Source: Paraspadella gotoi (Eukaryota > Animalia > Chaetognatha). Taken from it: a stretch of DNA of 64,000 nt. The notes under the pieces were generated by a model. The model ran no database searches. It was not told the origin of the DNA and was given only the letters and a program-made list of their open reading frames with translations. Shown in pieces: positions 13,067-23,700 of the stretch. Within the stretch, counting starts at the first letter, position 1; each line of letters opens with the position of its first letter. Location of the stretch: positions 10,825,790 through 10,889,789 of the forward strand of contig CM119268.1 in assembly GCA_051294375.1 (NCBI GenBank), in the 5' to 3' direction. The translations under genes were made by a program, and so were the position numbers.

Positions 13067-16000
13067 ATGAAGTCGCTAATTTTTTTCGCTCTCTCTTTGT
13101 TTTTAGCCGGTAATTATAATATATTACTAAACTAAAATAAACCACAGACTTTAAGGTTTGTTTTGTTGTCCTCTCGACCCCTCTCTCCGCGCGCAGGTCC
13201 GGCCACCGCCGACGACGTTTGGCTCGGAAAAGCCATCTCCAAGGATTGGTTCTTCAGAGATTCGAAGACGCCGCCGATCAGGGAAATCATTTCCCTTCAA
13301 GAGATAGATGGTAGATTTTGACATGGCATAACGTGACACGCAACGGTCCAATTTTACATCCCATCGTCTTCGAATTTTTTTCAAGATGGCGACGGCGGGA
13401 AAACTTTCGAATTCTCGGCCTTCGGCAAAAAATGGCGACTGACTGGAGTCGAGAACTCGGCTCTCTTTTCTGAGGGAACCAAGTTCGAAGAGAGGACGGA
13501 AAAGGGTAAAAGTCGTTGAAAAGGTTTTGATCGATTAGTGAAATGGGATTCGGAGAAAAGTAAGGAAGGATTAGAGGTAAGTTAAATCTCTCGTGGGTAA
13601 CTTTCGGTTACATGGAGACAAGACTAAGAGTAACCAGTGGTTAGTAACCACTCCATGATGACTAATTTGTGCCGAAACGTGGTCATTTTTAGAACTAAAG
13701 GATCACTCCAAAAAAACGACCTTTTGACGTAAATTTAAGACTTTCTAATCTTCGCAACATCCCAAAAGGCGAGACCCTCTCCTCCCGGAATTGGAAGCGC
13801 GAGAATTGCTTCTACGTGGGCCGCGCCTCCACCGGAAGCGAAGAGGCGGGAGTGGCCTCGTTCTCCACGTGTCACGGTCTTCGCGCCGTCATCGTCACCA
13901 ACAGAAACGATTACGTCATCCAACCGGCGAGGAGCGACGTGGCTAAGAGGGGGATGAGTAAAAAGTAGAGAGAGAGAGAGAGAGAGAGAGAGAGAGAGAG
14001 AGAGAGAGAGAGAGAGAGAGAGAGAGAGAGAGAGAGAATTGAATTGTATTGAATTGTATTAAAGAAACGGGCTTTGGGCTACATTGTGCCCCTAAAAGCT
14101 ACATCAATTTACAAAACGATATTCACAAGTTGAAAAGTATTTAAAGATATAAACGAAAATCGGGTAGAGTTTTTATTCTAAACATGTTTCATGAAATCTT
14201 TCCAAGAGAGAGAGAGAGAGAGAGAGAGAGAGAGAGAGAGAGAGAGAGAGAGAGAGAGAGAGAGAGAGATAATGAAGCAAACCAGTGAAAACGTGACGAT
14301 ATAAACAAACCCTACCGCACGTTTTCTCTTCAAAACCTCCATCCAGTGAGGCTCACCACATTCACGTCGAGCCTCGCGACGCTCCCAACGTCTCGTCAGC
14401 CAGCTCCAACGCCGCCAAGAGCCCCGTGCTCGAACGGCTCGTCGGCCCAGCGATCCCCAATCCACGGACGAAGGGATGGGCGAGTTCCGGCGTGGCGGGA
14501 GCCGAGGCCAATCGCGGTCCGACCGGAAATCGCGCTCGAGAGTTGACGGTGGAATTGGGGATCATAGTGGATCAAGAATACGTTGATACGGTGGGTGGAG
14601 ATACGACGAGAGTCTGGAGAGGGGGGGGGAAGTCGAGACATCGCCTTGAACCCAAACTATGAGTCGATAGTTTGGATTAACCCTTACGTAAGGAAACTTT
14701 CACTTCTGATCTCATTTGATTGATTGATTTTACGTTCAAAGGTGAAACGAGACGAAAGTCCGGAACCTGACTGGTTGATGTTTCACATTCTCGAACGTGT
14801 CAACTGGATTCAACTCTGGTAAATCCTTCTCATACGAATAGTTGCTTCAACGGATATAATATTAATAAGATTAAAAAAAAGAAAATAAAAAAATAAATTA
14901 AAGAGTCAAGAATTCAATAAAAAATGAAGGAAATGATTAAATCAACCGCGACTACTACTACTACTACTACTACTACTACTACTACTACTACTACTACTAC
15001 TACTACTACTACTACTACTACTACTACAACAACAACGGCGATTGGCGACAGGTACTTGCACCCAACGTTCGGCTACACCTGGTGGTGGTACATCCATCGC
15101 GTCATCATCAACGACAAACCCATCGACTATTCCAAGTACGATGGCGAAAACTGGGACACCCTCATCGACAAAGTTTGCAACTGGCAGAGCCTCAATCAGC
15201 CCGACAGCGATTCCTGGGACCACACCCTGATCATGTCGTCGAAGCCCCACATTTGGGGCACGAGGCCGAACGGGGTCGAGTACATCGGCCGGGCCATCGC
15301 CGATGGGGCCTGCGACAAGAGAAAGCATTGCGTCGGGGTCAAGGACATGAACTTTCAGTGGGGAACTTGGACGAGGTACATTCAGATTGCGTTTTCGTGA
15401 TGCGATTGGGATTTATTAAGGATAAATGGGCCCAAATGTTCCGAGCGAATTAATTTTGAGGCAGGTAGAAATTACTAAGGCTCGAGAGCGAACAATTCCA
15501 GCAGGCTTCTTGAATATTATATTTCTCCCGACCCCTCCAACGCAACCACACCTAAAAAGACTAGCGGCTCACGAATGCGCCCATGGCTTTGGCGTGCCCG
15601 ACGACTACCCAGAGTCGGGCTCCCCGACCTCCGCCGAGTGTTTCGCCGGCCTCATGCGGCAGGGCGTCTACCAGGACTTCGAGTGGAGTCGCTGCTCCGT
15701 GGAAACGTTCGAGGAGTGGAGGAAGAGGTGGGGCGCTTGTCTCGATGAGTCGCCCAACATGGCGAAGAAGGAAAGGCCGATGGTGGAGTTTAACGCGGCT
15801 TACAGGGCGAGGGCGCATCAGGTTTGGAGTTGGGGTGGATGGGGACGAGGGTGGGTGGGAAGGTGGACGATGGTGGGGAGAGAGAGGTGGGAGAAAAACA
15901 ACTATCCTCAAAACTTTTGCATCTCCAAAAAATCATCAACATTTGTCCACAACATCCTCCAACCTCCGTCCAGTCGAGCCGCTTTGGCGCCGCAGAGGAG

Positions 16001-20707: not shown

Positions 20708-23700
20708 GGATCTACGCTTCAATCGTATTCATCACATCCCAATCGGTTCCTTCAAGGGACTTAACAAACTCAATACCTTGTGAGTATTACTTAAATCAAA
20801 AATATGCGTTAAGTAATTCACTTTTTCAAATATTAATTCAAATATATTTGGGTTTAAAGGTTACTCAATAATAATCACATTCGCAAGATCAAAAGCGGAG
20901 CCTTCGAAGGCCTCGACAATCTTCGTTATTTGTGAGTTCAACTTGATTTACTCACCATCACGTGAAAATACTTTATTGTGAACTTTTTTCTGCAGATATT
21001 TATACAAAAATGAAATCAGCGTTATAGAACCAAATGCATTTATAGGATTGAATCGCCTAGAACAATTGTGAGTTTCGGATTTAAATCGATTCTAAGCTAA
21101 GGCTTAACGCATTGAGTAAATTTTTTAACATACAATTGTTTTGTTTAGGTATGTACATTTCAATAGAATAAAAGAATTATCTCCAGAAACCTTTGCTCAC
21201 CTCCCGGCCTTGGAACGATTGTAAGTGGTGCATAATATCTAGTGTGATATCTCATGGGTTTTTGAAAATAACTATAAATCTTTTTCTTAGATTTCTACAC
21301 AACAATAAGTTACGAACAATACCAGTCGGAACGTTCACACATCTTCAACGGCTAAAGCGATTGTGAGTTTAATTTAAGTTTTATAAACTAACATTAAATA
21401 AGCTCGATCATCATTTATTTCTTTCGCTCTCTCTCTCTCTCTCTCTTTCTCTCTCTCTCTCTCTCCTCGTCTCTCATCTCTCTCTCTCTCTCACAGACGC
21501 CTCGACTCGAACGCTCTCATTTGCGACTGCAAGATGATGTGGTTGGCGAAGATGTTGAGCGACTCCAAGACTCAGACAGAAGCAGCTGCCACGTGTCAGT
21601 CGCCGGTCGGCCTGCAGGGAAAGCCGCTCACGTCGCTAACGCCTGAGGAATTCCATTGCAGTAAGTGCCACATATTTTGTGAGAAAGAAAAAAGAGAGAG
21701 AGAGGAAATAAAGAAAAGAATACAGAAAGAAAGGAAAGAAAGAAAGGAGAGAGAGAAAAAAAGGAACTAAGGAAGGAAAAAAGAAAAAAATAGTAAACTG
21801 AAAAAAACAAGAAAAAAATGAAAGATGAAGGAAAAAAGAAAAAAAAGAAACTAAGAAAAAAAAAGAAAGAAAGTGTAAACTAAAAAAAAAAGATAAAAGA
21901 AAAACAGTAGGAAAAAACCAAGGAAAGAAAGAAGATGAAATAAGTAAAATTCAAGAATACCAGTTTGATTGAGGGGATAGATGATTGAGTCGTTTTTTTA
22001 ATCAATCAATCAATCAAATTTTACCAATATTTTCTATCCCCTGCGTAGAAGTGCCACGCATTAAAACGGAGCCAAACAGCGTAGAGACTTCGAGCGGCAA
22101 AACGGTTTACTTGACTTGCAAGGCGGAGGGAGACCCTGTACCAGAAATCACCTGGTTCCATAATAGGTGCATTTCAAAGATAGAAGATAATTAGTGATAC
22201 TGTGATACAGTCATGCAGTTATATATATATATATATATATATACAGTCATATACAGTCATATATCGAAACGAGAAATATAAATCATTTAAAATCTAACAA
22301 TTAATTAAAAAAGATAACAAAAACAGTAGAAATAAAAATAGAGCATTTATTATATCAATCAATCAATCAAAAATCGAAGCCGATTCCAATCTCTGGATTC
22401 GCAGCAACGAATTGACGGATCTGGATCGTGGCGGACGTCGGGCCGGACGACATCAGCTGCTGGAGGACGGAACGCTGATGATCAAGGAAGCCACTCCGGC
22501 CGACCAGGGCTTCTACGAATGCATGGCCAAGAACATCTTGGGCCAAGTCAAAACCTCGGCGGTGCAGCTCAAATACCGCGGCAAGGGAGGTAAGGTTTTT
22601 TCCGGAAGGGGTGGGAGTTAGTTCCTCACCCGAAAGCCGCATAAGTTCTCTTTTTCAACTTGACTAAAGCGATGACGTTTTGAAAAGAAATATTTATTTT
22701 TTTCGTTTAAAAAATCTTTATAACTCGGAGGCGTCGAGACCAAAAAAAAAAAAAAAAAGGAAACCGACATAAAGTTCTTAAAAACGCTTCCTTCGATTTT
22801 AAACCAATTGTCAATTTTGATGAATCTCTGTTATCTTTAAGTCTTCTCGTGGGAAATGATCCATCATTTTTCTTTTTTTTAACAGTCTCTCTCTCTCTCT
22901 CTCTCTCTCTCTCTCTCTCTCTCTCTCTCTCTCTCTCTCTCTTCTCTCTCTCTCTTCTCTCTCTCTCTCTCTCTTTCTCTCTTCAATATTGTTTATTCTC
23001 GGAAACATTGAGGTTTTCTTTCATTTTTTTATCCAAAATTTTAGTCTTCAAATATTCTTATCAACGAAAGTTGTAAAAGGCTCAAAATTTATATGATAAA
23101 GAGTTATCTTATTTAAAAAGAATCAAAGAGAGAGAAAGGAGAGAGAGAGAGAGAGAGAGAGAGAGAGAGAGAAGAGAGAGAGAGAGAGAGAGAGAGAGAG
23201 ATAGAGATACTTTCACTTCACTCTCCCATTGAAAATCCCGGCGAAGAAAGTCTTTTAAATCAAAACATCCCGAGGTTTCTGCGCCCCGCCGTTTCATAAC
23301 GTTTAAGAGTCACCCCTTAATTTTTTTTATTAAAATAAAGCTGAAAGTTTTTATCAAATTAAGCTAAATTTCAAAAGCCAATTTTTTTTTTTTTTATATG
23401 GGAAGACCGAGCAGAGAAGAGCTTGAGGTTCCGAACTGTGCTGCTTTTCTTTTTTTCTTTTTCTTGTCTTAGTACACAAACGCTGTTGTTTTCCACATTT
23501 CATTTCCACATTTTGGTAGTCGTAAAAAAGTAACTTTAATCATATTTTGATTTTTGGTACTAATGAATCGAACGTCAGTTTTCTAATTGTTAATTTTGAA
23601 AAAAACTTCACCTATTTGTTTTTATTCGGAATTTTCTTTTCCCTCATTTTCCCCTCCGCTCTCTCTCTCGCTCTCTCTCTCTCTCCTCTCTCTCTCTCTC

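What the first reader, a model, noticed from the sequence alone, without database searches (positions are those of the whole stretch)
13067..20779. Protease gene appears nested on the same strand inside peroxidasin intron 1
Seen: the protease gene stops at 20253 with a polyA signal at ~20289. Only about 450 bp later lies an internal, acceptor-preceded, phase-2 peroxidasin exon (DLRFNRI). I found no signal peptide/LRRNT (CP..C.C) exon in the gap or in 1-13000. Inference: peroxidasin exon 1 is more than 20 kb upstream (or in an N gap), so its pre-mRNA must skip 19 same-strand exons and a polyA site. Same-strand nesting of a multi-exon gene is rarer than antisense nesting and implies mutually exclusive expression or unusual splice-site selection.
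Basis: inference. Interest (0 to 1): 0.7.

Follow-up and report, generated by a model that had tools for sequence, protein, structure and literature searches.

The report
19-exon protease likely inside peroxidasin intron
An intact 19-exon gene predicted to encode a secreted metalloprotease ends 454 bases before the second coding exon of a peroxidasin gene on the same strand, and the peroxidasin's first exon is not in the window, so the protease likely lies inside a first intron of more than 20 kb: a known kind of gene nesting, unusual here for the guest's many introns, and untested with RNA.

Summary
The protease is a 19-exon, 1185-codon open model (signal-like start, reprolysin-type zinc motif, lectin-like domain, 13 ShK-like modules). 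It stops at 20253, with AATAAA at 20289. Peroxidasin begins at 20708 with a phase-2 internal exon and stays open over 18 exons to 56487. Its conserved N-terminal cap scores 50-75 bits in 15 of 15 homologues, but 5.3 bits at best in the window, which is noise level. The 454-bp gap has no N, no repeat of the window and no ATG-led phase-2 exon. Later peroxidasin introns reach 12 kb, and one holds a spliced antisense gene. Best reading (about 0.75): real same-strand nesting in a first intron over 20.7 kb, with the protease likely on its own promoter. This is not proven: exon 1 was not seen, and no reads or RNA were laid. Same-strand nesting is a known kind; in Drosophila such guests are mostly single-exon, so 18 introns is an extreme case. 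A strong splice acceptor 8 nt before the protease ATG leaves open a shared upstream exon or spliced-leader release.

The parts
13067..20253 (+). Protease gene CDS, 19 exons (13067-13109, 13197-13310, 13386-13505, 13769-13964, 14347-14590, 14742-14818, 15052-15375, 15560-15821, 15974-16126, 16294-16507, 16957-17211, 17433-17613, 17776-17984, 18153-18370, 18615-18884, 19008-19171, 19245-19341, 19547-19750, 20041-20253): hydrophobic signal-like N-terminus, likely prodomain, reprolysin-like catalytic region with HECAHGFGVPD at residue 377, galactose-binding/F-type-lectin-like domain, 13 ShK-like modules
   Evidence: open 1185 codons; PF01421 E 0.0069, below cut-off; PF22633 E 1.4e-5, just below cut-off; PF01549 above cut-off; signal peptide and prodomain by inspection
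13039..13058 (+). Strong 3' splice acceptor ending 8 nt before the protease ATG: the ATG exon is likely not the first exon of the RNA (cis 5' UTR exon, shared exon or spliced leader)
   Evidence: score 9.9; 3 sites this strong in 1-13000
11801..12050 (+). GC-rich stretch ending in a strong donor; candidate non-coding first exon of the protease (inferred, untested)
   Evidence: donor score 10.5 (2 such in 1-13000); GC 0.78 at 11801-11900
20289..20294 (+). AATAAA, likely protease polyadenylation signal
20254..20707 (+). 454-bp gap: no N, no repeat shared with the rest of the window, no ATG-led phase-2 exon; one TT|GTGAGT donor-like site at 20553 with no in-frame ATG and no similarity to the LRR cap
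20708..20779 (+). First visible peroxidasin exon (DLRFN LRR unit), phase 2, internal type
20708..56487 (+). Peroxidasin, 18 visible exons, all GT-AG, 777 open codons (5 LRR, LRRCT, 4 Ig, start of peroxidase domain); introns up to 12,173 bp; exon 1 and the 3' part lie outside the window
28776..31247 (-). Three-exon core (404 open codons, GT-AG) of an antisense gene inside the 12-kb peroxidasin intron; further coding-like exons to about 36100
   Evidence: no credible Pfam family

Best explanation
The intact 19-exon protease gene likely sits on the same strand inside peroxidasin intron 1, whose signal-peptide/LRR-cap exon would lie more than 20.7 kb upstream of 20708, beyond the window start. Shown: both open reading frames, the internal phase-2 acceptor at 20708, and the absence of the cap exon from the window. 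Inferred: peroxidasin transcripts start far upstream, run through the protease, and join exon 1 to 20708, skipping 19 same-strand acceptors. Inferred: the protease is made from its own promoter, likely with a non-coding first exon ending at 12050 and spliced to the acceptor at 13058, and is cut at its own polyA site. One pre-mRNA can give only one of the two products, so the genes are predicted to be kept apart in cell type or time, as for most nested pairs. Mis-splices from host exon 1 into 14 of the 19 protease acceptors would hit a stop within 122 codons and likely be degraded; the other 5 would give in-frame chimeras.
For: Cap exon absent from the window at a sensitivity that finds every homologue cap. 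15 of the 19 fetched proteins with the DLRFN-type motif carry the Cys cap directly before it (161 hits among 164 proteins). Gene models of other animals break at the same spot: P0012 has another N-terminus joined at DLRFN, and P0013 joins the cap directly to a later LRR unit. LRR exons conserved at homologue level. The first in-frame ATG of the visible mRNA is at nt 398, after all five LRRs. None of the 14 ATG-led phase-2 candidates upstream of 13067 looks like signal peptide plus cap, and none lies in the gap. The gap is unique within the window and free of N. The host has other large introns (4.6, 12.2 and 5.2 kb, and no further exon was matched in the 7.5 kb after 56487) and at least one spliced antisense guest. 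Nested genes prefer the longest and most 5' introns (PMC11694760, passages). Mis-splice outcomes.
Against: Exon 1 was never seen. The scaffold is imperfect upstream: four N runs and a 2.4-kb block repeated at 86% identity across a 25-N gap. In Drosophila 72.5% of same-strand guests are single-exon and multi-exon ones have a median of one intron (PMC3814207), so the prior for an 18-intron guest is low. 4 of the 19 homologue records lack the Cys cap before DLRFN: two start inside the cap and two have another short N-terminus, so cap-less models exist. No close relative was found to confirm the lineage's normal N-terminus (best LRRCT identity 69%).
Confidence: 0.72

Rival explanations
1. Assembly mis-join or a recent rearrangement/duplication: the peroxidasin body was joined to, or moved next to, the protease, and its exon 1 lies elsewhere or this copy has lost it.
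For: The assembly shows N runs and a noisy duplicate upstream. Exon 1 is not visible. A published arrow-worm genome is rich in tandem duplicates (PMC12460157, passages; relevant only if the unreviewed lineage notes are right).
Against: The break must fall in a 454-bp gap that has no N and no repeat of the window; there is no N from 5593 to 64000. All 18 exons are intact and conserved, so an orphaned copy would have to be very young. Genome-wide repeats could not be checked.
Confidence: 0.13
2. Chimeric start: peroxidasin borrows the protease's promoter, signal peptide and leading exons through one of its five phase-2 donors (13964, 14818, 15375, 17613, 19171), which replace the LRR cap.
For: These joins would be in frame, and they would supply the missing signal peptide. 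Unreviewed notes report gene fusions in this genome.
Against: No fetched homologue has such an architecture. The cap is highly conserved across vertebrate-like and arthropod peroxidasins. The protease has its own stop and polyA signal.
Confidence: 0.06
3. Local or operon-like start: after cleavage at the protease polyA site, the 20708 acceptor receives a spliced leader, or a promoter in the gap is used, giving a truncated peroxidasin.
For: The geometry resembles an operon: same strand, about 410 nt from polyA signal to acceptor. Arrow worms trans-splice about half their genes (PMC12460157), if the unreviewed lineage notes hold.
Against: The chaetognath leaders shown in the passage read end in TAAA and supply no ATG (PMC2481426 Table 3, partly displayed). 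The first in-frame ATG follows three out-of-frame ATGs and all five LRRs, so the conserved LRR exons would be untranslated and the product would lack a signal peptide. It could exist as a by-product.
Confidence: 0.05
4. Exon 1 is hidden in an N run of this window, or is joined from a separate transcript by genic trans-splicing.
For: The N runs of 115 and 148 bases cannot be searched.
Against: Both runs are flanked by simple or tandem repeats and are nominally shorter than a signal-plus-cap exon of 50-67 codons. If the exon were in an N run, the protease would still be nested. There is no evidence for genic trans-splicing.
Confidence: 0.04

Closest known systems
Same-strand nested genes of Drosophila (Lee and Chang 2013, PMC3814207; passages and section 3 part 1 of 3 read)
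   Same: A protein-coding guest wholly inside a long intron of a host on the same strand; hosts have long, many introns; splice interference is the proposed cost.
   Different: There 72.5% of such guests are single-exon and multi-exon ones have a median of one intron; this guest has 18 introns. Those cases rest on annotated host exons on both sides; here the upstream host exon is inferred.
C. elegans cholinergic locus unc-17/cha-1 (PMC3875643, passage read)
   Same: A multi-exon guest in the host's first intron on the same strand, with either-or processing of one pre-mRNA.
   Different: Those genes share a 5' untranslated exon and act in one pathway, and the guest has three exons in the intron. 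A shared exon is not shown here, and the two proteins have no known common pathway.
OMP inside CAPN5 (PMC6549253, passages read)
   Same: Same-strand nesting with apparently anti-correlated host and guest expression.
   Different: OMP is a single exon; expression here is unmeasured.
Peroxidasin (PXDN/Pxn; UniRef-named P0002, P0003, P0005, P0008; domain layout in PMC8533639, passages)
   Same: LRR units, LRRCT, four Ig domains and the start of the peroxidase domain in the same order; 44.6-47.7% identity over about 470 residues to the best full-length hits.
   Different: The signal peptide and LRR cap are not in the window; the C-terminal part was not seen.
Reprolysin (M12B, ADAM/ADAMTS-type) metalloproteases
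   Same: Weak Pfam PF01421 match on the zinc-motif exon, HExxH motif, signal-like start.
   Different: The third zinc ligand position holds Asp rather than His (HExxHxxGxxD); the tail is a lectin-like domain plus 13 ShK-like modules. No relative was found for exon 7.

Membership tests
Same-strand nested gene | Guest is an intact gene | tested here: met
   19 exons, 1185 open codons, stop and AATAAA
Same-strand nested gene | Host exon downstream of the guest, same strand, internal type | tested here: met
   20708 exon, phase-2 acceptor, no local in-frame ATG
Same-strand nested gene | Host exon upstream of the guest on the same molecule | tested here: inconclusive
   Not in the window; no genome held; required by conservation but not observed
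Same-strand nested gene | Host mRNA splices across the guest | not tested
   No RNA or reads were laid on this stretch
Shared-first-exon locus (unc-17/cha-1 type) | Guest and host share a 5' exon | tested here: inconclusive
   An acceptor precedes the protease ATG, but a nearer donor at 12050 explains it; a splice from the host's coding exon 1 would be out of frame
SL-resolved operon | Downstream gene is a complete ORF beginning after the trans-splice acceptor | tested here: not met
   Peroxidasin from 20708 lacks ATG, signal peptide and cap
Peroxidasin | LRR + Ig + heme peroxidase domains in order | tested here: met
   (peroxidase domain only partly in the window)
Peroxidasin | N-terminal signal peptide and LRR cap | tested here: inconclusive
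   absent from the window; may lie upstream
Reprolysin M12B | Pfam PF01421 above cut-off and HExxHxxGxxH motif | tested here: inconclusive
   16.8 bits against a cut-off of 20.8, on one 88-aa exon only; third ligand is Asp; canonical motif recalled

The most novel reading that the evidence does not exclude
In a trans-splicing animal, the 19-exon protease has no promoter of its own. It is released from the peroxidasin pre-mRNA by spliced-leader addition at the acceptor 8 nt before its ATG and by polyadenylation at 20289. One promoter would then yield either a basement-membrane cross-linking enzyme or a secreted metalloprotease: an either-or 'intronic operon' switching between building and cutting extracellular matrix.
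Probability: 0.1. Interest if true: 0.75.

Novelty: new member of a known kind. Interest (0 to 1): 0.35.

Why it matters
If confirmed, it is an extreme example of same-strand nesting. The spliceosome would have to pass 19 strong acceptors, 18 donors and a working polyA site, which tests the proposal that selection against mis-splicing keeps such guests intron-poor (PMC3814207). It also matters for annotation: gene finders would tend to fuse the two genes or truncate peroxidasin. As it stands it is one unconfirmed locus of a known class.

Tried and rejected
Whole genome: none held. RNA: no RNA holder listed on record; one run, X1, guessed to be RNA, with word share 0.46. Gap donor at 20553: same TT|GTGAGT pattern as the LRR exons and phase 2 in an 84-codon open frame, but no ATG, no cap similarity and AT-rich; the pattern also occurs at 4070 and 16163; rejected as likely chance. 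Split cap exon: half-profiles gave best scores of 2.7 and 3.9 bits, against 28.9-36.1 for three training members; rejected. Close relatives: none in the LRRCT searches (14 hits of 40 candidates; best 150 of 233 listed); none for protease exon 7 (0 of 14; atlas hits under 0.9) or for peroxidasin exon 17 (0 of 205); these are weak negatives. Solved structures: nothing meaningful for the zinc-motif exon. Lineage: the homologues do not place the animal (45-48% identity to vertebrate-like and arthropod proteins alike; best LRRCT hits are centipedes at 69%). 'Arrow worm' comes only from unreviewed notes. Literature: searches (listings) gave no report of a gene nested in peroxidasin intron 1 or of leader-released intronic guests; the library lacks most subscription papers. 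The three supplement files of PMC12460157 held as text mention Pxdn only as a marker gene; gene tables, which may bear on this, were not seen. Earlier findings near this locus or on peroxidasin: none.
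Full report
Observation. The window is animal DNA with GC-rich exons, AT-rich introns and many microsatellites; no whole genome is held. I rebuilt the protease gene by coordinates: 19 exons, 13067-20253, 1185 codons with no internal stop. Sixteen introns are GT-AG, two need GC donors, and the exon-4 donor is ambiguous. Pfam on 8 single exons gave a weak reprolysin match (E 0.0069, below cut-off), a galactose-binding domain (E 1.4e-5, just below cut-off), ShK domains and LRRCT; 3 of the 8 had no family. The zinc motif is HECAHGFGVPD, and there are 13 ShK-like modules. 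AATAAA occurs at 20289, 20382 and 20455. Peroxidasin starts 454 bp after the stop, with a 72-bp phase-2 exon at 20708, and stays open over 18 GT-AG exons and 777 codons to 56487. It matches named peroxidasins in domain order at 44.6-47.7% identity for the best full-length hits.

The missing exon. Of 19 fetched proteins carrying the DLRFN-type motif, 15 have a Cys cap right before it; two records start inside the cap and two have another short N-terminus. A profile of the 15 caps scores each member at 49.7-75.4 bits leave-one-out. Its best score in six frames of the window is 5.3 bits, and shuffled windows give 0.7-8.9. A control profile of the next LRR unit finds the 20708 exon at 37.3 bits. 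Half-profiles, motif scans and tblastn also fail. Of 248 donor-like sites upstream of 20700, 56 have an ATG-led phase-2 frame: 14 upstream of the protease, none resembling signal peptide plus cap; 42 within the protease span; none in the gap. That the 20708 exon is 'exon 2' in vertebrates is recalled; the supporting data here are the P0012 and P0013 models breaking at the same place.

Why an upstream exon is needed. The five LRR exons are as similar to 10 homologues (0.55-0.64) as those are to each other (0.54-0.66), so they are very likely translated. The visible mRNA has its first in-frame ATG at nt 398, after three out-of-frame ATGs and all five LRRs. Peroxidasin is a secreted matrix enzyme with N-terminal LRRs (PMC8533639, passages; PMC5377774, listing). 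An upstream signal-peptide exon with a phase-2 donor is therefore inferred, outside the window or, less likely, in an N run.

Assembly. There is no N between 5593 and 64000, and the gap has no repeat shared with the window. Upstream, a 2.4-kb block is duplicated at 86% identity across a 25-N gap, so the scaffold is not flawless; but a break upstream of 13067 would not undo the nesting. Read continuity was not tested: no RNA holder is listed on record, and no reads or contigs were laid.

Context. Visible peroxidasin introns reach 4.6, 12.2 and 5.2 kb. The 12.2-kb intron holds a spliced antisense reading frame of 404 codons in three exons, and further antisense coding-like exons lie in later introns. 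So this gene already acts as a host, and a first intron over 20 kb fits its build. Mammalian guests favour the longest, most 5' introns (PMC11694760, passages). An unreviewed note on this genome describes a tubulin gene hosting 14 antisense genes; I did not test it.

Mechanism. Shown: layout, frames and phases. Inferred: host transcripts cross the protease and splice exon 1 to 20708. The hexamer alone is no barrier, as 61 AATAAA lie in 33,447 bp of the other introns. A phase-2 mis-splice into 14 of 19 protease acceptors meets a stop within 122 codons; 5 stay in frame. The protease ATG is preceded, 8 nt upstream, by an acceptor scoring 9.9; only 3 sites that strong occur in 1-13000, roughly a 1% chance within 30 nt of a given ATG. 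The simplest partner is the strong donor at 12050, at the end of a GC-rich stretch, which would make a non-coding first exon and an independent promoter. Interference between nested and host genes through exonization and cryptic polyadenylation is described (PMC3192792, abstract only). If the genome is an arrow worm, as unreviewed notes say (my homologues neither confirm nor exclude it), the acceptor could instead take a spliced leader, since about half the genes of a published species are trans-spliced (PMC12460157, passages). The leaders displayed in PMC2481426 Table 3 supply no ATG, so a leader at 20708 cannot make a normal peroxidasin.

Comparison. In Drosophila 71.27% of nested genes are antisense; 72.53% of same-strand ones are single-exon, and multi-exon ones have a median of one intron (PMC3814207). 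By my arithmetic about 8% of nested genes are same-strand and multi-exon. unc-17 in cha-1 intron 1 is a multi-exon same-strand precedent with a shared exon (PMC3875643, passage), and OMP in CAPN5 is a single-exon one with apparently anti-correlated expression (PMC6549253, passages). Nested genes are typically 5-10% of animal genes (PMC10282587, passages). Searches listed no report on peroxidasin intron-1 guests.

Verdict. Nesting is likely (about 0.72-0.76, counting the N-run variant) but unproven. It is a new, intron-rich member of a known kind; interest 0.35.

Noticed in passing
window:28776-36140 (-): Antisense multi-exon gene in the 12.2-kb peroxidasin intron; three-exon core open for 404 codons, upstream exons not fully chained; no credible Pfam family.
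   Followed up: partly
window:42951-44060 (-): Antisense membrane-protein exons in the 5.2-kb peroxidasin intron; His-containing helices resemble a cytochrome b561 / ferric-chelate reductase domain (resemblance recalled; atlas lead 0.79 with PF03188 in 18% of members; only weak Pfam hits).
   Followed up: partly
window:53281-53490: GC-rich coding-like stretch in the 3.8-kb peroxidasin intron; strand unclear.
   Followed up: no
window:3153-7894: A 2.4-kb block repeated at 86% identity on either side of a 25-N gap, likely a gap-filling artefact; it contains an AT-rich inverted-repeat element also found at 59322-60044.
   Followed up: partly
window:16127 and 18371: Two of 18 protease introns appear to use GC donors, against none of the 18 peroxidasin donors.
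   Followed up: partly
window:15560-15821: Zinc motif with Asp at the third ligand position, and a lectin-like plus 13-ShK tail; no relative found for the neighbouring exon.
   Followed up: partly
window:11458-11990: GC-rich, low-complexity open frames on both strands; could be a small gene or the protease's 5' region; no Pfam family.
   Followed up: partly
window:27194-27394: The second Ig exon of peroxidasin carries a 10-residue insertion relative to the homologues aligned.
   Followed up: no
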